From Patescibacteria group bacterium (lineage in GTDB: Bacteria > Patescibacteriota > Patescibacteriia > 2-01-FULL-39-33), in assembly GCA_041662745.1 (NCBI GenBank), contig JBAZRV010000005.1, positions 30,001 through 62,000 of the forward strand: DNA of 32,000 bases, read 5' to 3'. Position 1 is the first letter of the stretch. The number at the start of each line of letters is the position of its first letter. Positions 4,097 to 23,523 of the stretch are shown piece after piece. The notes under the pieces were generated by a model. The model saw only the letters and a program-made list of their open reading frames with translations, searched no databases and was not told where the DNA came from. Made by a program: the position numbers and the translations under genes.

Positions 4097-6139
4097 TTAT
4101 CTGCTTTGCCTTATACTCATAATATCTTCCACCTCTTCATCAGCCGGCGGATTGTCCGGCAGAGCGGCAGAAAGAGTGTCCAATCCCCCACTTAAATCCG
4201 GCGGCGGAATCAATGGCTGGCGCGGTTCCAGTGATGACAAACTCAAAGGCGGGACGCTATCGTCCTCGTGGCGCACCAATTGCTCCAGCATCCTAATCGC
4301 CGGTTCGCGCGCCGGCGCCGGCTTGCGTCGTTCGTCTTTGACTTTCTTAAAACAATCATTGCAATATACCGGCCGGCCCTTTTCCGGCTGAAAATTCAAC
4401 TTGAACATCTTGCCGCACATGGAGCATTTGGCGTCAAACTTGCCGAACTCGCGACGTTCTCCCTGATCTTTTCTGGCGGGCGGGTCAGCAGCATACCGCG
4501 GCTCATCAACGCGCCTGTCATCCCGGCGTTCCGCCCTGCTTTCTGTACCGGCGGATCCGGCATCATCGCGCAGATCGCGATCGTCGCGTCGGGGCGGCCG
4601 GTCATCGCGTCGGGGCGGGCGGCTGTCCGGCCGGTCATCGCGACTGAAAGAACGGCTTTCGCGTCGGGGCGGTCGATCATCGCGCTTGGGCCAAACCATC
4701 GGCCGAGGCGGGGTCGGCAGCAAAGTGCCGGTGCCCAAAGCCGACAAAGAAATGGTCGGGCCGGCTACCGGCTCTTTCATCGGCACCACTTCACCCATTC
4801 TTAATTCGCCCTTTTCAGCATGAGCGGCGATATCGCCCATGCGCGTACTTAAATCAGCGGAGCTCCAACGATTGATCTTGTCTTCCACCACGGCGCGCGG
4901 ATTGGCGTATCTCTCGCGGGAAACATAAGTTACTTTTTCGCTGTTGTTAGTGCGGTATTCTTCAAATAACGGTGGCAGAGTGGCGGCGGAAAAAGGATCG
5001 GAAGAAACGCCGTCAATCATCAGTTTAAGGTAAACGGCAAAGGCCGGCAAGTTGACCAGATCTTCTTCGGTAAAAAACGGCGCGAATTCCAAAACCAGTT
5101 TCTCGGCATCAGCGGCGCCGACACGGAAACAAATCAATGTGCCGACGTTGCCGAATACGGCTGCCGCTACCTCTTCCGGCAACTGTTCAATATATTGATG
5201 CGCCACAATCAGATTGAGACGGTATTTTCTGGCTTCGGACAGGATATTGGCAAAACTTTCCGTAGCGAAGTTCTGAAATTCATCCACATAAAGATAAAAA
5301 TCGGGGCGGTCTTTCTCTAATATGTCCACCCGGCTCATGGCCGCCAAGTACAGCTTGGTCACGATCATGGAACCCAAAAGCTTCATGGTATCTTCGCCGA
5401 TCTTGCCTTTGGCCAAATTCAAAATCAAAATCTTCTTGTTATCCATGATTTCCCGCAAATCAATGGTGGAAGTCACCTGGCCGACGATATTGCGGATCAG
5501 AAAATTAGACAAGAATTGGCCGACTTTATTCTGGATGGGCGAAATGACTTCTTGCAAGGTCTTTTCATTCCATTTGGAATATTCATTAACCCAAAAACTG
5601 CGCACCACCGGGTCCTTGATTTTGGCCACGACTTTTTCGCGATAGTCCTTTTCCACCAGAATGCGCATGATGCCCAAAAGCGTGGAGCCGGGATAATCCA
5701 ACAACGACAAGATCGTATTGCGTAAAATATATTCCAAACGCGGGCCCCAGGAATCGGCCCAAAGTTTTTTGAAAACGGAAATAAGGCCGGAAGCGACGAA
5801 ATTCTTGTTGATTTCATCCACCGCTTCCAAAACGTTAAAGGCGATGGGAAACTCGGCATCGGCCGGATTAAGGTAAATCACGTCATTAATGCGGTGAGGC
5901 GGAATAAAGTCCAGCAATTTTTCGGCCGTATCGCCGTGCGGATCAATATAGCAACAGCCTTCGCCGTTTAAAATATCAGAAATAATAAGATTTTCCAGCA
6001 GGGTGGTTTTTCCCATGCCGGTTTTACCGATGACATACATGTGGCGGCGACGATCATCGCGCTTAATGCCAAAAGACCTGCGCGCATTGCGGTAGTTGGT
6101 TTCGCCAAAGATTGTTACGTTATTGTTTGGTTCGGGCAT
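4097..6139 (-). CDS. VirD4/TraG/TraD-type (type IV coupling-protein-like) P-loop ATPase lacking an N-terminal TM domain, with an Arg/Asp-rich repeat and CxxC-x17-CxxC zinc-ribbon tail
   Basis: Walker A GKTGMGKT (6005-6028). YIDPHGD motif. Walker B / TraG-D_C-like FYLYVDEFQNF...ARKYRLNLIVAHQYIEQL. Tail from aa ~485: RDDRPPRRESR...RPPRRDDRPPRRDDRDLRDD, then C572-x2-C575-x17-C593-x2-C596. Confidence 0.75.
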   Translation of the reverse strand: MPEPNNNVTIFGETNYRNARRSFGIKRDDRRRHMYVIGKTGMGKTTLLENLIISDILNGEGCCYIDPHGDTAEKLLDFIPPHRINDVIYLNPADAEFPIAFNVLEAVDEINKNFVASGLISVFKKLWADSWGPRLEYILRNTILSLLDYPGSTLLGIMRILVEKDYREKVVAKIKDPVVRSFWVNEYSKWNEKTLQEVISPIQNKVGQFLSNFLIRNIVGQVTSTIDLREIMDNKKILILNLAKGKIGEDTMKLLGSMIVTKLYLAAMSRVDILEKDRPDFYLYVDEFQNFATESFANILSEARKYRLNLIVAHQYIEQLPEEVAAAVFGNVGTLICFRVGAADAEKLVLEFAPFFTEEDLVNLPAFAVYLKLMIDGVSSDPFSAATLPPLFEEYRTNNSEKVTYVSRERYANPRAVVEDKINRWSSADLSTRMGDIAAHAEKGELRMGEVVPMKEPVAGPTISLSALGTGTLLPTPPRPMVWPKRDDRPPRRESRSFSRDDRPDSRPPRRDDRPPRRDDRDLRDDAGSAGTESRAERRDDRRVDEPRYAADPPARKDQGERREFGKFDAKCSMCGKMFKLNFQPEKGRPVYCNDCFKKVKDERRKPAPAREPAIRMLEQLVRHEDDSVPPLSLSSLEPRQPLIPPPDLSGGLDTLSAALPDNPPADEEVEDIMSIRQSR

Positions 6140-18925: not shown

Positions 18926-18955
18926 AAATTATAATTTAGATAATAACAATATCCT

Positions 18956-19013
18956 GTTATTCCTGAAAATTTGCAGCGAGCCTTAGCGGGCTAAAATTTA
19001 TCAGGAAACCAGG
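18956..19013 (+). repeat. 58-nt hairpin repeat (long form) of the GTCATTCY...GGAATC family
   Basis: GTTATTCCTGAAAATTTGCAGCGAGCCTTAGCGGGCTAAAATTTATCAGGAAACCAGG. Arms TTCCTGA/TCAGGAA, AAATTT/AAATTT and AGCC/GGCT pair. About 71% ungapped identity to 8052-8107. Confidence 0.7.
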
Positions 19014-19057
19014 TTAATTAATAATTATAAAATAACAAAATAAATATAACTGCCACA

Positions 19058-19085
19058 CCTGGATTCCTGCTTTCGCAGGAATGAC
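19058..19085 (-). repeat. 28-nt hairpin repeat (short form) of the same family
   Basis: Minus strand GTCATTCCTGC-GAAA-GCAGGAATCCAGG. Its ends match the ends of the 18956-19013 copy (GTyATTCCTG ... CAGGAAwCCAGG). It is inverted relative to that copy and starts 10 nt after the murB stop. Confidence 0.7.
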
Positions 19086-19095
19086 AAAACAAAAA

Positions 19096-20064
19096 TTAAA
19101 ATCCCAAATATTGGACTTCCTCCATTAATTGCAAGCTGAATTTGCTTCTGACCTTCTGCTTGATTGCTGATGCTAACATTAGCACATCGCTGGCCGTCGC
19201 GCCACCGGCATTGATGATTATTCCGGCGTGCCGGTCGCTGACTTTGGCGCCGCCGATCTGCCGGCCGCGCAAACCGCATTCATCAATCAGCCAGGCGGCG
19301 GGAATTTTCTGCCAAGCGATGAATTGTTCGGGGATTTCCGGCTGCCGGCTTTTAAGTTCCGCGGTCTCTGCCGACGTTAACGCGATATTGCGAAAAAAAC
19401 TGCCGGCGGACGGCCCCTCGCTGAATTTAACGCCGCGCTCCGCCGTAATCTTTGCTATTTTTTCTTTGGCCGCGGCAATTTCTTCCGGCGTACCAATTTT
19501 CAATTTCAAGGCAACCGACAAAATAATATCCTTATTGCCGTCTTTTTTAAACCGACTCTTGCGATAGCCGAAATCGCAAGCGCTGCTCGGTAATTCAATA
19601 ACGGCATTTTGCTTCAAAATTTTTACGCTGGACACGTTTTGAGACATCTCTCCGCCGTAAGCGCCGGCATTGCCGCAAACGGCTCCGCCAATCGTCCCGG
19701 GTATGCCCATGGCCCACTCCAAACCAATTAACCCGGCTTTCAATGATTGCGCCAGCGTCAAAGCCAAGGAAGCGCCGGCATCAACAATCAACTGATCGCC
19801 GTTGATTTTTATTTCGCCACCGTTTATTTTTATCACCAGACCATCAAAACCGTCATCGCTGGCCAAAATATTACTGCCTCCGCCCAGCACCGCATAATCA
19901 ATGCTCTCCGCTTGCGCTTCAGCAATCAGTTGTTTTATTTCCTCGGCGTCTTTGGCCAAAGCTAAAAACCTGGCCGGACCGCCGATCCGCAAGGTGGTAT
20001 GATTAGCCAATGACTCATTTTCCTTGAACCTTTTACCGAGATTTTTTCTGGCTTGCTCTAACAT
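19096..20064 (-). CDS. murB: UDP-N-acetylenolpyruvoylglucosamine reductase MurB
   Basis: NHTTLRIGGPARFL, FAD-binding VLGGGSNIL, C-terminal AGSFFRN...AAWLIDECGLRG...GGAKVSDRHAGIIIN. Confidence 0.93.
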   Translation of the reverse strand: MLEQARKNLGKRFKENESLANHTTLRIGGPARFLALAKDAEEIKQLIAEAQAESIDYAVLGGGSNILASDDGFDGLVIKINGGEIKINGDQLIVDAGASLALTLAQSLKAGLIGLEWAMGIPGTIGGAVCGNAGAYGGEMSQNVSSVKILKQNAVIELPSSACDFGYRKSRFKKDGNKDIILSVALKLKIGTPEEIAAAKEKIAKITAERGVKFSEGPSAGSFFRNIALTSAETAELKSRQPEIPEQFIAWQKIPAAWLIDECGLRGRQIGGAKVSDRHAGIIINAGGATASDVLMLASAIKQKVRSKFSLQLMEEVQYLGF

Positions 20065-20508: not shown

Positions 20509-20958
20509 ATGTCTAAACCAGTACAATTTCCTGATGGTTCAAAAGAACCTAAAACGACAAAGAAGCAAGCGATGACTGAATACAAGTGCCCCTTAACGGC
20601 CGAGCAATATGAAGCAGCCATGAAGCCCTTTCCCTACGAGTCACTCCAGCGGTTAACAGAGTTAGTGCTTAATCTGCGCGCCGCAATGAGAGAATCGGGC
20701 GATCTAATGACTACCCTTATGGCAGTCTTGTGGGGCAGCAACTCCGCATACGAAGAACATAAAACCCTCTCCGCTCCCCGACTGCCGGAAATTGTCGCAG
20801 AAATCCGTTCCCTGCTTTGGCTGGAAGTTAACCATAGCGCTCCTCCGACAAATAAAAGCGAGATCAAGAATAAGATTCAATTCCTTTATGAATATCTGGA
20901 ACATCCCGAACGATTTTCTTTTGCATGTAACGTCGCAATCGGCAGGAAACCTTCCTGA
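20509..20958 (+). CDS. hypothetical protein, 149 aa
   Basis: AAGGAGG lies 8 nt upstream of the ATG. Soluble and predicted helical. No family recognised. Confidence 0.6.
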   Translation: MSKPVQFPDGSKEPKTTKKQAMTEYKCPLTAEQYEAAMKPFPYESLQRLTELVLNLRAAMRESGDLMTTLMAVLWGSNSAYEEHKTLSAPRLPEIVAEIRSLLWLEVNHSAPPTNKSEIKNKIQFLYEYLEHPERFSFACNVAIGRKPS

Positions 20959-20983: not shown

Positions 20984-21013
20984 AACACCGGCAATTCGTC
21001 GGTGTTTTCATTT
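20984..21013 (+). terminator. candidate terminator of the cassette
   Basis: AACACCG-n9-CGGTGTT followed by TTCATTT. It abuts the murC stop (21008) on the other strand. Confidence 0.45.
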
Positions 21014-22453
21014 CACTAAATTTTTCGCCAATTCATAAACATCACCGGCACCCAATATCAGAATCACATCAAAATCATCAGCTAACATTCTTATCAATTT
21101 TTCACTCTCCGCCAGCGAACCGCCATAGAGCGTCCTAACTCCCTGAGCTGCAATCGCTTCAGCCAGTATCTTGGAGTCAACAGCAAAATCCTCGGGCTTC
21201 TCCCGGCCGGCGACATAAAAGATATCGGGAATGATCACCTGCTCCGCCGAGCCGAAGGCCGTCACAAACTTATTGAACAAATTTTTTGTTCGGGAGTATT
21301 GATGCGGTTGAAACACGATCAAGATCTTTTTACCCGGATAGAATTCCTTAGTCGCGCTGATAACTTGAGCGACGGCATCAGGCGTATGGGCGTAATCGGC
21401 AATGACTTCGGCTTGGCCCAGTCGGCCGAGCCGTTCAAAACGACGCCAGGTGCCGGTAAAGCCGGCCAAAGACTGTCGAATAATTTCGACATCAATTCCC
21501 AAGGTACGGCAAACGGCAATAGCGCATAGGGCGTTATAGACATTATAACGGCCGGGCAGAAGCAAAGAGAATTGACCTAAACTCCGGCCTCGTTCAGTAA
21601 CGGAAAAAGTTTGCCTGTTTTTGTCATCCTGAGGCAGAGCCGAAGGATCTAAAGTTAAAACTTGAGATTCTTCACTACGTCCGTCAGTCAGCGGACTTCC
21701 GTTCAGAATGACAGCTTTATAGTCAGCTTCTCCGGTAATGCCGAAAGTTACTTTGTTCGCCTTAAGCTTCGGCGCGAGTTCCATTGAATTGGGATCGTCG
21801 GCATTAAGCACCGCATACCCTTCCGCCGGCACATGCGACAAATAATTGCCAAAGGCCGATTTGATTTCGGCCAAATCTTTATAATAATCTAAGTGGTCCT
21901 CACCGATGTAGGTGACGGCGGCAATCTGCGGGTAATAATTATCAAAAGCTCGGCGATACTCGTCGCTCTCAAAAACAAAATATTCGCCCCGGCCGGATCG
22001 GGCGTTACCGGACAAAAAATCAGCTTTAGCGCCCAAAACCACGCTTGGATCCTTATCCGCATCAATTAGAATCTTGGCGATCATGGCCGTAGTGGTAGTC
22101 TTGCCATTAGTGCCGGACACGCTGATGCCGAATTTATCAGCCAGCAATAATTGCAAAAACTGCGGGTAGGTCATCTGCTCTATGCCCAATTCCTTTACGC
22201 GCATCCGCTCCGGGTTAGCCTCCGGCGCGGCCACGGTATAGACCGCCAGATCAGCGTCAGTCGGCACGTTTTCCGCCCGTTGAGGCACTTTGACATCCAG
22301 ACCCAGCGACCGCAAATCATCAACCACTTCACTGATCTGCGCATCACTGCCGGAAACGATTATCCCCCGATCCCGCGCCAAGCGAGCTGTGGCCGAAATG
22401 CCGATGCCGCCGATGCCGATAAAATGGATTTTTTTTATTTCCAGTAAATTCAT
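21008..22453 (-). CDS. murC: UDP-N-acetylmuramate--L-alanine ligase MurC (carries a 30-codon repeat-derived insertion)
   Basis: IHFIGIGGIGISATA, GTNGKTTTTAMI, DEYRRAF, LPGRYNVYNAL, ADYAHTP. ATGA overlap with the murG stop. Confidence 0.93.
   Translation of the reverse strand: MNLLEIKKIHFIGIGGIGISATARLARDRGIIVSGSDAQISEVVDDLRSLGLDVKVPQRAENVPTDADLAVYTVAAPEANPERMRVKELGIEQMTYPQFLQLLLADKFGISVSGTNGKTTTTAMIAKILIDADKDPSVVLGAKADFLSGNARSGRGEYFVFESDEYRRAFDNYYPQIAAVTYIGEDHLDYYKDLAEIKSAFGNYLSHVPAEGYAVLNADDPNSMELAPKLKANKVTFGITGEADYKAVILNGSPLTDGRSEESQVLTLDPSALPQDDKNRQTFSVTERGRSLGQFSLLLPGRYNVYNALCAIAVCRTLGIDVEIIRQSLAGFTGTWRRFERLGRLGQAEVIADYAHTPDAVAQVISATKEFYPGKKILIVFQPHQYSRTKNLFNKFVTAFGSAEQVIIPDIFYVAGREKPEDFAVDSKILAEAIAAQGVRTLYGGSLAESEKLIRMLADDFDVILILGAGDVYELAKNLVK
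21623..21712. repeat. inverted pair of GTCATYCT hairpin repeat units lying inside the murC reading frame
   Basis: Plus-strand unit: GTCATCCTGAGGCAGAGCCGAAGGATCT (21623-21650). Minus-strand unit: GTCATTCTGAACGGAAGTCCGCTGACTGACGGACGTAGTGAAGAATCTC (21712-21664). The 90 nt equal murC codons 248-277. Confidence 0.7.
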
Positions 22454-23523
22454 TTTTTCTTTTTAATTAATTGCAAAATAATATCCGCCACTGCTCCAGC
22501 GCCGTTTTGCGGCATCATTTTTCTAATATTCTTTGACAGCTTATCAAGTTTGTCGTCGCTTTTGATCAATTCGCTAATAACGTCGGCCAACATCTTTTTA
22601 TTCAACGAGACTTCGGATAAAACCACGGCGGCGTTATGCTTCTGGAAATAATTGGCGTTGTCCTCTTGGTGCGTCCGATACATCGGAATAATGATTGACG
22701 GTTTGCCACAGTAAGATAACTCCGACAAAGTGGACAGTCCGGCACGCGTTACCACCAAATCGGCTACGCACAAGGCCTCGGGCATCTCATGGGTTATGAA
22801 TTCAAATTGGCGGTAATTATCAGCGGAAAAATTTATCTTTTTGCCCTTGCCGGTAACATGAATCACTTGGATGAATTTCATCAGGTCAGGCAGAGCTTGA
22901 TCCAGTATTTTATTGACCGTGGCCGCGCCCGTACCGCCTCCGGTAAAAAACACTATTGGCACGTCCTTCTTCAGACCGAATAATTCACGGCTTTTCTCCT
23001 TATCGCAATGGCTGAATTCTTCCCGAATGGGATTGCCGGTTAGAGTTGCTCGGCCGCGCTTGAAATCGCGCAGAGAAATATCAAAGGATACGGTGATTTT
23101 TCTGGCCACCGGCGACATTAAACGATTGGCCAAGCCGACTTCAATATCTTGCTGATGGATTAGGATGGGAATGCGCAACAGCCCTGCCGCCCAAGCTAAA
23201 GGCACACCAACATAAGCGCCGGCCACCATCACTAACTGTGGACGAAAAGCAAGCAAGATTTTCAGGGATTGCAAAAATCCCCAGATAATTTTAAACGGAT
23301 CAATAAAGTTCTGCCAAGAAAAATAACGGCGGAACTTTCCTGAAGTAACGGCTAAGAAGGGTATCTTATAGCTTTCCACCGCTGATCGTTCCGGACCGTT
23401 AGCGGTGCCGACAAACAAAAACTCCGCTTCGGACTGACGTTTTTTGATTTCCTGATAAACGGCGATAAGCGGACTGACCGAACCCATGGTACCGCCGCCG
23501 GATAATAATATTTTATATTTCAT
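22450..23523 (-). CDS. murG: undecaprenyldiphospho-muramoylpentapeptide beta-N-acetylglucosaminyltransferase MurG
   Basis: N-terminal LLSGGGTMGSVSPLIAV, C-terminal FFTGGGTGAA...VTRAGLSTLSEL, position within the dcw cluster. Confidence 0.92.
   Translation of the reverse strand: MKYKILLSGGGTMGSVSPLIAVYQEIKKRQSEAEFLFVGTANGPERSAVESYKIPFLAVTSGKFRRYFSWQNFIDPFKIIWGFLQSLKILLAFRPQLVMVAGAYVGVPLAWAAGLLRIPILIHQQDIEVGLANRLMSPVARKITVSFDISLRDFKRGRATLTGNPIREEFSHCDKEKSRELFGLKKDVPIVFFTGGGTGAATVNKILDQALPDLMKFIQVIHVTGKGKKINFSADNYRQFEFITHEMPEALCVADLVVTRAGLSTLSELSYCGKPSIIIPMYRTHQEDNANYFQKHNAAVVLSEVSLNKKMLADVISELIKSDDKLDKLSKNIRKMMPQNGAGAVADIILQLIKKKK

What the first reader, a model, noticed from the sequence alone, without database searches (positions are those of the whole stretch)
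21623..21712. Hairpin-repeat pair inserted in-frame inside the essential murC gene (exactly 30 codons)
The inverted pair of repeat units spans 90 nt. It starts on the first base of murC codon 248 and ends on the last base of codon 277, encoding VILNGSPLTDGRSEESQVLTLDPSALPQDD with the frame intact. It sits between ...GEADYKA and KNRQTFSVTERG...LPGRYNVYNAL. From memory of MurC sequences, that region is a short connector of roughly a dozen residues or fewer, so this looks like a ~30-aa extra loop of repeat origin. In-frame survival of palindromic elements in coding genes is known for Rickettsia palindromic elements. I am not aware of an equivalent report for this repeat type or lineage.
Basis: partly seen in the sequence, partly recalled or inferred. 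Interest (0 to 1): 0.68.

Follow-up and report, generated by a model that had tools for sequence, protein, structure and literature searches.

The report
Hairpin repeat translated inside murC
A 90-base palindromic repeat, related to the hairpin motifs that flank small GIY-YIG (Ssn-type) nuclease genes in many bacteria, sits in frame inside the single cell-wall gene murC of an ultra-small (Patescibacteria) bacterium. It is predicted to be carried as a floppy 24-residue surface loop, a new example of the "selfish DNA inside genes" known from Rickettsia and Wolbachia.

Summary
Window 21623-21712 is exactly codons 248-277 of murC (21008-22453, minus strand). It is an imperfect palindrome made of two inverted hairpin units with GTCAT ends pointing outward.

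Two other full copies lie in intergenic DNA of the same 1.0-Mb genome. A profile built from those two copies alone finds the murC copy at E=5e-9.

None of 40 relatives' MurC, 41 database homologues or the solved MurC structures has the segment. The net gain is 24 residues, not 30, because the element's first six codons (VILNGS) replace six native beta-strand codons. AlphaFold models the enzyme confidently (pLDDT 91.7) apart from residues 253-276.

Only one of the element's six frames is open, and that is the frame in use. An independent JGI metagenome contig carries the same insert with one SNP.

The units resemble the published NTS/SRM hairpins that flank Ssn nucleases (Chenal 2025), but they do not match that paper's search pattern. 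Related units also sit in frame in polA and two reverse-transcriptase genes of this genome.

Earlier notes of this scan report similar in-frame hairpins in other CPR genomes. Verdict: real, and a new member of a known kind (like RPE/WPE).

The parts
21008..22453 (-). murC (UDP-N-acetylmuramate--L-alanine ligase), 481 aa, the only murC in the genome, lying between murG (22450-23523) and murB (19096-20064)
   Evidence: ORF listing; Pfam; TIGR01082 at 396 bits against a 335 cut-off; search of the own genome finds no second MurC; all 50 invariant alignment columns are kept
21623..21712 (-). The 90-nt palindromic element (an SRM-like hairpin doublet), equal to murC codons 248-277
   Evidence: homology to the two intergenic copies; absent from all orthologues
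21665..21712 (-). 5' unit in mRNA sense: GTCATTCTGAACG...AGTGAAGAATCT (TCT-type). It encodes VILNGSPLTDGRSEES, and its first 18 nt replace six native strand codons
   Evidence: 13/13 and 12/12 nt blocks identical to the C3 copy; alignment with the G001/G002 DNA; residues VILN are modelled inside strand 245-251
21679..21696 (.). Nested 18-nt mini-palindrome GTCCGTCAGTCAGCGGAC inside the loop of the 5' unit. It is absent from the C3/C4 copies and holds the only SNP against contig L202 (21684 T>C)
   Evidence: Alignment of the copies; DNA fold; SNP position
21651..21664 (.). Central spacer/loop of the doublet (AAAGTTAAAACTTG), shared with the C3 and C4 copies and therefore part of the element rather than native murC
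   Evidence: Alignment
21623..21650 (+). 3' unit in mRNA sense, read here on the + strand: GTCATCCTGAGGCAGAGCCGAAGGATCT (CCT-type hairpin, stem ATCCT/AGGAT, inner stem GGC/GCC). It encodes DPSALPQDD on the murC strand
21626..21697 (-). Codons 253-276: the net 24-residue gain, predicted to be a disordered loop at the tip of a beta-hairpin of the middle (ATP-binding) domain
   Evidence: AlphaFold2: the only segment with pLDDT below 50; the only 24-column block unique to this protein among 42 sequences
18955..19085 (.). Intergenic inverted pair of sister-subfamily units downstream of murB: a degenerate long-loop unit at about 18955-19015 and GGATTCCTGCTTTCGCAGGAATGAC at 19061-19085.

Best explanation
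The 90 nt are a gene-less doublet of two inverted hairpin units (GTCAT-stem-loop-stem-ATC, with the GTCAT ends outward). It has the same architecture as the hairpins that bracket small single-domain GIY-YIG (Ssn-type) nuclease genes, minus the nuclease gene, so it resembles a REPIN or MITE. One copy entered murC after this lineage split from its nearest sequenced relatives. The event overwrote 18 nt (six codons of a beta-strand) with the element's own first 18 nt and added 72 nt. The element's VIL(N) now stands in for the native strand, and 24 extra residues bulge out as a disordered loop at the tip of a beta-hairpin in the middle domain. The copy survives because, in this orientation and frame, it has no stop codon and a length divisible by three, and because the site tolerates a loop. 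The insert is carried passively and translated; no function is needed to explain it. Shown here: repeat homology, absence from orthologues, open frame, intact and conserved MurC, predicted disorder, and presence in a second assembly. Inferred: that the segment is translated, that it is neutral, that the Ssn-type nuclease is what spreads such doublets, and how the insertion happened.
For: Repeat identity:
- Two other full copies in the genome and a non-circular HMM hit at E=4.8e-9.

The segment is an insertion:
- 40/40 relatives' MurC lack it; the closest is 83% identical outside the insert.
- The DNA alignment shows 27 nt in G001 where G000 has 99 nt.
- 41/41 homologues have 9 residues between A247 and Q281.
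- PDB alignments break at that point.

The enzyme is intact:
- It passes TIGR01082 and keeps all invariant residues.
- The AF2 model has pLDDT 91.7 and pTM 0.91, with the only poor segment at 253-276.
- TM-score is 0.89-0.93 to H. influenzae MurC 1P3D.
- It is the only murC copy.
- Against contig L202, 46 of 64 differences in murC outside the insert fall at third codon positions.

Frame and assembly:
- Only 1 of 6 frames of the element is open, and it is the one used.
- JGI contig Ga0172379_10064678 (L202) carries the same junctions and insert with 1 SNP.

Family context:
- GTCAT-hairpin-ATC units lie within 150 nt upstream of 17/30 and downstream of 18/30 small GIY-YIG genes in this class (both sides in 13/30), against 1/30 and 0/30 in control windows.
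- The genome's own cassette is at C6:37827-38204.
- This matches the published NTS-ssnA-NTS architecture (PMC11893778).

The phenomenon recurs:
- A canonical NTS unit lies in frame in the polA linker, with independent unit insertions in relatives' polA.
- Units lie in frame in two RT paralogues.
Against: - No read-level check was possible.
- L202 is 99.3% identical to the window over its first 272 nt (which include the insert) and about 90% identical afterwards. It may therefore be a chimeric contig end or a recombination tract rather than an independent lineage.
- There is no target-site duplication (sequence read directly).
- The genome holds no nuclease gene with the same (YCT-type) units; its one Ssn-like gene is flanked by TCC-type units.
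- The murC units do not match the published degenerate SRM pattern.
- Translation of the loop and enzyme activity are untested.
- Single units fold only weakly as DNA (z = -1.4 and -0.9).
Confidence: 0.8

Rival explanations
1. The insert has been co-opted. One version: the embedded hairpins mark murC DNA for an Ssn-type ssDNA nuclease and so modulate recombination or transformation at the cell-wall gene cluster, as NTS-gene-NTS does in Neisseria. Another version: the mRNA hairpin tunes murC translation, or the loop has a protein-level role.
For: - Ssn nucleases cleave ssDNA next to NTS/SRM hairpins and lower the integration of NTS-bearing DNA in N. meningitidis (PMC11893778).
- The insert and its flanks show 2 differences in 272 nt against L202, where the rest of murC shows about 10%. 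That could reflect constraint or a recombination tract.
- The mRNA hairpin is strong (-34.9 kcal/mol).
Against: - The insert is present in only one lineage of 40 or more.
- The loop is predicted to be disordered.
- The genome's own nuclease has different flanking units.
- The low-divergence tract extends into ordinary coding sequence and ends at a contig end, which fits an assembly chimera or plain recombination.
- In Neisseria the NTS is rarely inside genes (2%).
Confidence: 0.1
2. The 90 nt are not translated as part of MurC. They would be skipped by ribosomal bypassing or removed at the RNA or DNA level.
For: The segment is a strong hairpin. Mobile-element-borne coding gaps that ribosomes bypass are known, for example T4 gene 60 (bioRxiv 10.1101/2022.08.31.505936, listed).
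Against: - The frame is open and the length is a multiple of three, which bypassing would not need.
- There is no stop codon after a take-off codon and no matching take-off/landing pair (sequence).
- Removing all 90 nt would also delete six native strand residues that every homologue has.
- There is no Rfam match.
Confidence: 0.04
3. Assembly artefact: a repeat copy was wrongly placed in murC, or two strains were merged into a chimera.
For: The genome is a metagenome-assembled genome. Reads could not be inspected. The protein is a singleton in the 5.8-billion-protein collection.
Against: - A separately assembled JGI contig contains both junctions and the full insert, with one SNP inside it.
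- The insert differs substantially from the other two copies in the genome, including a private 18-nt nested palindrome, so it cannot have been copied from them by an assembler.
- The insert is perfectly in frame within a 106-kb contig.
Confidence: 0.03
4. A native, lineage-specific loop expansion that resembles the repeats only by chance.
For: MAFFT can align SQVLT in the insert with SQIET of the nearest relative.
Against: - Profile E-values are 5e-9 and 5e-6 on the two strands.
- There are 13/13 and 12/12 nt identical blocks and a shared central spacer with the intergenic copies.
- The sequence has palindromic symmetry that a native loop has no reason to have.
Confidence: 0.02

Closest known systems
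Rickettsia palindromic elements (RPE; Ogata et al. 2000, 2002, as summarised in PMC10969869) and Wolbachia palindromic elements (WPE)
   Same: A palindromic repeat of about 100 nt, present in both intergenic and coding DNA, inserted in frame in housekeeping genes. It is translated in one permissive frame and sits where the host protein's fold tolerates it.
   Different: There is no sequence relationship at the protein level: the insert peptide hits no NCBIfam family, RPE/WPE models included, even at E up to 10. The phylum is different (Patescibacteria). Copy number is very low (3 full copies, against 44 RPE insertions reported in R. conorii). The units belong to the GTCAT-hairpin family linked to GIY-YIG nucleases. 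The insertion replaced six native codons rather than simply adding sequence.
NTS / dRS3 / SRM hairpin repeats with Ssn single-domain GIY-YIG ssDNA nucleases (Chenal et al., Nat Commun 2025, PMC11893778)
   Same: Hairpin units of 20-50 nt with a conserved, orienting 5' GTCAT. The units flank small GIY-YIG genes on one or both sides (17/30 and 18/30 here; 71% and 42% in the paper). They occur across many phyla. A canonical NTS (TGTCATTCCCGCGAAGGCGGGAATCCAG) is present in this genome, inside polA.
   Different: The murC units (GTCATYCTGA...GAAGRATCT, with tandem G-A mismatches and a GCGAAGC-like inner hairpin) do not match the paper's degenerate SRM pattern. The paper reports NTS as rarely inside genes (2%) and does not describe in-frame translated copies. 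A search of its text found no mention of Patescibacteria. Cleavage of this variant by any Ssn is untested.
REP/REPIN doublets and their RAYT (IS200/IS605-like Y1) transposases
   Same: Two inverted short hairpins separated by a short spacer form a longer hairpin (a REPIN-like doublet). A single-copy gene flanked by the same hairpins is the presumed mobiliser.
   Different: The genome has no Y1 transposase (PF01797); the associated gene is a GIY-YIG nuclease. There is no GTAG/CGTC head. REPINs are almost entirely extragenic.
Bacterial MITEs (for example the Correia element, Nezha)
   Same: A short, gene-less element with terminal inverted repeats that can fuse in frame with host ORFs.
   Different: No target-site duplication, no parental IS with a transposase, and very low copy number.
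Zn-ribbon insertion in the middle domain of archaeal pseudomurein ligase pMurC (Mfer336, PDB 6VR7; PMC10117817)
   Same: [quoted passage not shown] This indicates a permissive site.
   Different: It is a folded, conserved zinc-binding module, not repeat-derived. The positional equivalence is estimated from alignment offsets only and was not checked by superposition.

Membership tests
MurC (UDP-N-acetylmuramate--L-alanine ligase, TIGR01082) | Full-length match above the curated equivalog cut-off, with the three Mur ligase domains | tested here: met
   396.4 bits against a 335.1 cut-off; PF01225, PF08245 and PF02875; TM-score 0.89-0.93 to 1P3D
RPE / WPE (protein-coding palindromic elements) | Palindromic repeat present in several genomic copies, with at least one copy in frame in a conserved gene and absent from orthologues | tested here: met
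RPE / WPE (protein-coding palindromic elements) | Sequence homology to the described RPE/WPE families (conserved encoded peptide) | tested here: not met
   The insert peptide with its flanks hits no NCBIfam family at E up to 10. Nucleotide consensus sequences of RPEs were not available to test.
SRM/NTS hairpin repeats of Ssn nucleases (PMC11893778) | Hairpin of 20-50 nt with a conserved orienting 5' flank (C)GTCAT | tested here: met
   Both units start with GTCAT at their outer ends and fold as stem ATYCT/AGRAT plus an inner stem
SRM/NTS hairpin repeats of Ssn nucleases (PMC11893778) | Match to the published degenerate search sequence HGTCWYN(0-2)YYVSBRHN(0-5)WNVSBRGN(0-2)RNCYNB | tested here: not met
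   Neither murC unit nor the C3/C4 units match. The polA unit and C1:126507 do match. The whole genome gives 4 matches, against 2-8 in shuffled genomes.
SRM/NTS hairpin repeats of Ssn nucleases (PMC11893778) | Units flank single-domain GIY-YIG (ssnA-like) genes | tested here: met
   Units of the same YCT type flank GIY-YIG genes in L049, L173, L182, L193, L197 and L198. Overall 17/30 upstream and 18/30 downstream, against 1/30 and 0/30 in controls. This is not so in G000 itself, whose cassette has TCC-type units.
SRM/NTS hairpin repeats of Ssn nucleases (PMC11893778) | Cleaved as ssDNA by the cognate Ssn nuclease; the nuclease belongs to CDD cd10448 | not testable with these tools
   No CDD library is on hand. 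The G000 protein matches Pfam GIY-YIG and no NCBIfam family.
REP/REPIN-RAYT | An associated Y1 HUH transposase (RAYT) in the genome | tested here: not met
   PF01797 gives no match in a 98%-complete genome; the control search hits 6 of 14 reference genomes
MITE | Terminal inverted repeats plus target-site duplication, and a parental IS encoding a transposase | tested here: not met
   TIRs are present, but no direct repeat flanks any of the three copies, and the only associated gene is a nuclease

The most novel reading that the evidence does not exclude
GTCAT-hairpin doublets are REPIN-like non-autonomous elements spread by Ssn-type GIY-YIG ssDNA nucleases. In this reading they enter genes not by cut-and-paste but by templated patch repair at sites that resemble their own end. 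That end, GTCATYCTGA, reads Val-Ile-Leu, so the element end can overwrite a native hydrophobic strand or motif and stay in frame. Two observations point this way. In murC the element's first 18 nt replaced six native codons. In a Bacteroidales sigma-54 activator the units overwrote native sequence starting at the conserved AVILS motif: the left unit replaced exactly 27 nt, the native spacer between the units was kept, and the right side gained 15 nt; 21-nt (7-codon) in-frame tandem copies of the element end sit next to it. If true, this would be an undescribed insertion mechanism that makes this pan-bacterial repeat family a recurrent source of protein loops.
Probability: 0.15. Interest if true: 0.75.

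Novelty: new member of a known kind. Interest (0 to 1): 0.45.

Why it matters
The finding extends the "selfish palindromes translated inside essential genes" phenomenon from Rickettsia and Wolbachia to the ultra-small Patescibacteria. It also ties the phenomenon to a repeat family, the NTS/SRM-like hairpins of Ssn GIY-YIG nucleases, that was characterised only in 2025 and was reported there as rarely intragenic.

The practical consequences are modest. Annotators and structure predictors should expect repeat-derived disordered loops in CPR core enzymes. MurC position 252/253 is flagged as a permissive insertion site. The replaced-strand geometry, together with the alleles with and without the hairpins in polA and in a Bacteroidales sigma-54 activator, gives natural material for working out how these hairpins move.

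Tried and rejected
- **More copies in the window.** I looked for further copies of the exact element and found none. Only a sister-subfamily pair is present at 18955-19085.
- **Rfam.** No match at gathering threshold or at E up to 1, so the element is not a catalogued RNA.
- **Phage records.** No match.
- **Strict GIY-YIG regex.** My first regex missed the nuclease genes next to the motif. A looser regex and then a protein search corrected this.
- **SQVLT as native sequence.** I considered that SQVLT in the insert might be retained native murC sequence, since it aligns with SQIET of G001. I rejected this because the same spacer occurs in the intergenic copies.
- **A new nuclease/hairpin association.** I first took the GIY-YIG/hairpin link to be new, until earlier notes of the scan pointed to Chenal et al. 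2025. It is in print.
- **Literature searches for the motif.** Full-text searches for the motif itself and for its typical spurious peptides found nothing.
- **Distance from the active site.** Model coordinates are not exposed, so the distance of the loop from the active site could not be measured.
Full report
**1. What is there**

The window lies on contig C5 (30001-62000) of a 1.02-Mb, 10-contig, 98%-complete genome. The closest MurC relatives are labelled Patescibacteria or Candidatus Buchananbacteria.

murC is the 481-aa ORF at 21008-22453 on the minus strand, between murG and murB. It carries the three Mur-ligase Pfam domains and passes the NCBIfam murC equivalog.

Bases 21712 to 21623 are exactly codons 248-277 and read VILNGSPLTDGRSEESQVLTLDPSALPQDD. 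The segment has 11-nt terminal inverted repeats. It folds into a long hairpin better than shuffled sequence, both as RNA and as DNA.

**2. Anatomy of the element**

Read on the mRNA strand, the element has three parts:
- a 5' unit, GTCATTCTGAACG[..]AGTGAAGAATCT;
- a 14-nt spacer;
- an inverted 3' unit, AGATCCTTCGGCTCTGCCTCAGGATGAC.

Each unit is itself a small hairpin. It has GTCAT at the outer end, a stem ATYCT/AGRAT, tandem G-A mismatches, and an inner mini-hairpin of the GCGAAGC kind. The 5' unit also carries a private nested 18-nt palindrome.

**3. Repeat origin**

The genome holds two other full copies, both intergenic: C3:34202-34290 and C4:47160-47249. The C4 copy lies between parA and parB. 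The two share a further 20-nt tail.

A profile built from those two copies alone finds the murC segment at E=4.8e-9 and at 5.5e-6 on the opposite strand. BLAST gives 90% identity over 40 nt.

The window contains no second copy of this element. It does contain an inverted pair of sister-subfamily units just downstream of murB, at 18955-19085.

**4. It is an insertion, and the net gain is 24 residues**

- All 40 relatives searched have MurC, and none has the segment. The nearest (G001, G002) are 83% and 80% identical over the first 248 residues (about 80% on both sides of the insert), with open frames of 454 and 458 aa.
- Among 41 homologues from a 5.8-billion-protein collection, every one has exactly 9 residues between the alanine equivalent to A247 and the glutamine equivalent to Q281. 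Only this protein has the extra block.
- Alignments to solved MurC structures stop at residue 247/250 and resume at 273/280.
- At the DNA level, G001 has 27 nt where G000 has 99 nt.

The element's first six codons (VILNGS) therefore occupy the place of six native strand codons (SQIETV in G001). The event was a replacement plus an addition, not a clean 30-codon insertion.

**5. Consequence for the protein**

AlphaFold2, run with the 42-sequence alignment, gives pLDDT 91.7 and pTM 0.91. The only segment below 50 is residues 253-276. Residues 245-251 (YKAVILN) are modelled as a strand paired with residues 281-287.

The model superposes on H. influenzae MurC with substrates (1P3D) at TM 0.89-0.93. 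All 50 invariant columns of the family are kept, and there is no second murC in the genome.

Against the related contig L202, 46 of 64 substitutions in murC outside the insert are at third codon positions. The gene is therefore under purifying selection.

The archaeal pMurC enzyme carries a folded 50-residue Zn-ribbon insertion in about the same part of the middle domain (PMC10117817). That suggests a permissive site. I could not superpose the structures or measure the distance to the active site because model coordinates are not exposed.

**6. Frame**

Of the six reading frames of the murC copy, five contain stops. The one open frame is the one in use. This is what selection on an essential gene would leave behind.

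**7. Is the assembly right?**

The protein is a singleton in the protein collection.

An exact 40-nt search across the left junction found one JGI metagenome contig, Ga0172379_10064678 (L202, 3051 nt). It aligns to window 21561-24611 at 93.6% identity. It contains both junctions and the whole insert, with a single SNP at 21684 inside the nested palindrome.

One caveat applies. The first 272 nt of that contig differ from the window at only 2 positions, and after that divergence is about 10%. The contig end may therefore be a strain chimera or a recent recombination tract. Either way, a second assembly supports the junctions.

The murC copy is also too different from the other two copies to have been pasted in by an assembler.

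**8. What the repeat family is**

The 26-nt core GTCATYCTGARCRAAGYGAAGRATCT occurs in at least 120 contigs. These come from Acidobacteriota, Bacteroidota, Chloroflexota, Nitrospirota, Firmicutes, Gemmatimonadota, Omnitrophota, Saccharibacteria and others. It often appears as inverted doublets around a variable spacer, and sometimes with 21-nt tandem copies of its outer end.

I searched 60 genomes of the class with the genome's own 97-aa GIY-YIG protein and examined 30 loci. A GTCAT-hairpin-ATC unit lay within 150 nt upstream in 17, downstream (inverted) in 18, and on both sides in 13. Control windows 750 nt away gave 1 and 0. Stems differ between loci while staying complementary. G000's own cassette (C6:37827-38204) has this layout, plus 21-nt tandem arrays on both outer sides.

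Earlier notes of this scan pointed to Chenal et al. 2025 (PMC11893778), which I read. That paper makes these points:
- The units are the NTS/dRS3/SRM hairpins. NTS is defined as CGTCATTCCCGCGMAVGCGGGAATCYRG.
- The small nuclease is the Ssn family, a site-specific ssDNA endonuclease that cuts next to its hairpin.
- 71% of ssnA homologues have an SRM nearby, and 42% have one on both sides.
- The NTS-ssnA-NTS layout is noted to resemble an insertion sequence.
- NTS is "rarely inside genes (2%)".

The hairpin/nuclease association is therefore already known. The murC-type units do not match the paper's degenerate SRM pattern, whereas a canonical NTS elsewhere in this genome does. I therefore file the murC element as an SRM-like variant, not as a proven member. 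The genome has no RAYT transposase, and none of the three copies has a target-site duplication.

**9. The phenomenon recurs**

- **polA, this genome.** A canonical NTS unit (VIPAKAGIQ) lies in frame in the linker between the 5'-exonuclease and Klenow-like parts of polA (C6:26695-26718).
- **polA, relatives.** The same linker carries the orthologous unit in G001, tandem multiplied units in G002, and a YCT-type doublet (VILSQSEGS...QAQDDEK) in G003. G004, G005 and G007 have nothing there.
- **Reverse transcriptases.** Two reverse-transcriptase paralogues carry an inverted unit in frame, DSCFRRNDK and DSRLRGNDK.
- **Outside the CPR.** A rumen Bacteroidales sigma-54 activator family exists as alleles with and without a YCT doublet. 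The units start at the conserved AVILS motif and overwrite native sequence. The left unit replaces exactly 27 nt, the native spacer between the units is kept, and the right side gains 15 nt. Some alleles add in-frame 21-nt tandem repeats, VILSDSP.
- **Earlier notes of the scan.** These report similar in-frame hairpins in other CPR genomes, for example a 72-nt palindrome in ychF that shares words with this element.

**10. Mechanism and verdict**

The best explanation, at confidence 0.8, is that a gene-less doublet of Ssn-type hairpins landed at the tip of a middle-domain beta-hairpin of MurC. Its Val-Ile-Leu-coding end took over the native strand, and the rest is carried as a disordered, translated loop with no function needed.

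How such doublets move is unknown. The overwritten-sequence geometry in murC and in the sigma-54 activator suggests templated repair at sites resembling the element's end, but that is inference.

Co-option, non-translation, assembly artefact and chance resemblance are each considered unlikely, for the reasons given under the rival explanations.

Relative to what is known, this is a new member of the RPE/WPE kind of event, involving a variant of a recently described repeat family in a new phylum. Interest is moderate.

Noticed in passing
Genome contig C6:37600-38300 (outside the window): The genome's one Ssn-like GIY-YIG gene (97 aa) is bracketed by inverted GTCATTCC...GGAATCC hairpins. On both outer sides it also has five tandem 20-21-nt repeats. 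The downstream repeats each end in GGAATGAC, the terminal 8 nt of the unit, as if the element end had been copied repeatedly.
   Followed up: partly
Genome contig C6:25711-28548 (polA); loci L203-L211: The polA interdomain linker is a hot spot. G000 and G001 have one NTS unit in frame, G002 has about four tandem units, G003 has a YCT-type doublet, G006 and G008 have other hairpin-like peptides, and G004/G005/G007 have none. The last residues and the stop codon of G000 polA (SPLSFRP*) also come from another hairpin element at C6:28533-28613.
   Followed up: partly
Genome contigs C2:162527-163588 and C4:57737-58879: Two paralogous reverse-transcriptase (RVT_1) ORFs each carry an inverted hairpin unit in frame (NLDSCFRRNDK / NLDSRLRGNDK) at the same position within the RT domain.
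   Followed up: partly
Genome contig C4:53600-54300: A second small GIY-YIG ORF sits between a duplicated tRNA 5' half (GCCCGAGTGGCGGAACTGGTAGAC...) and the intact tRNA, next to the 20-nt palindrome CCTGCCTGCCGGCAGGCAGG. The same palindrome is nested in the loops of several hairpin units (C3:60111, C4:46988, C6:13294, C6:28533). This matches earlier scan notes on tRNA-linked GIY-YIG cassettes.
   Followed up: no
L069:1645-2997, L217, L218 (rumen Bacteroidales sigma-54 activator): Alleles at 85-88% identity differ by the presence of hairpin units at two linkers. At the AVILS motif the units replace native sequence (the left unit replaces exactly 27 nt), the native spacer is kept, and the right side gains 15 nt. 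Some alleles have in-frame 21-nt tandem repeats (VILSDSP x2-3). The receiver-AAA+ linker shows CHPERSEGS or SAKGLRMT units in some alleles and none in others.
   Followed up: partly
L202 against window 21561-24611: Divergence between the two assemblies jumps from 2 differences in the first 272 nt (which include the insert) to about 10% afterwards. This is either a chimeric contig end or a recombination tract carrying the insert allele.
   Followed up: partly
window 4557-4696: Six 21-nt tandem repeats lie inside a 680-aa ORF (4097-6139, minus strand) that begins with a P-loop ATPase-like region. They encode a low-complexity DDRPPRR-type stretch in frame.
   Followed up: no
window 20509-20958: A 149-aa ORF on the plus strand occupies the gap between murB and murC, which are otherwise a minus-strand cell-wall gene run. 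It was not examined.
   Followed up: no
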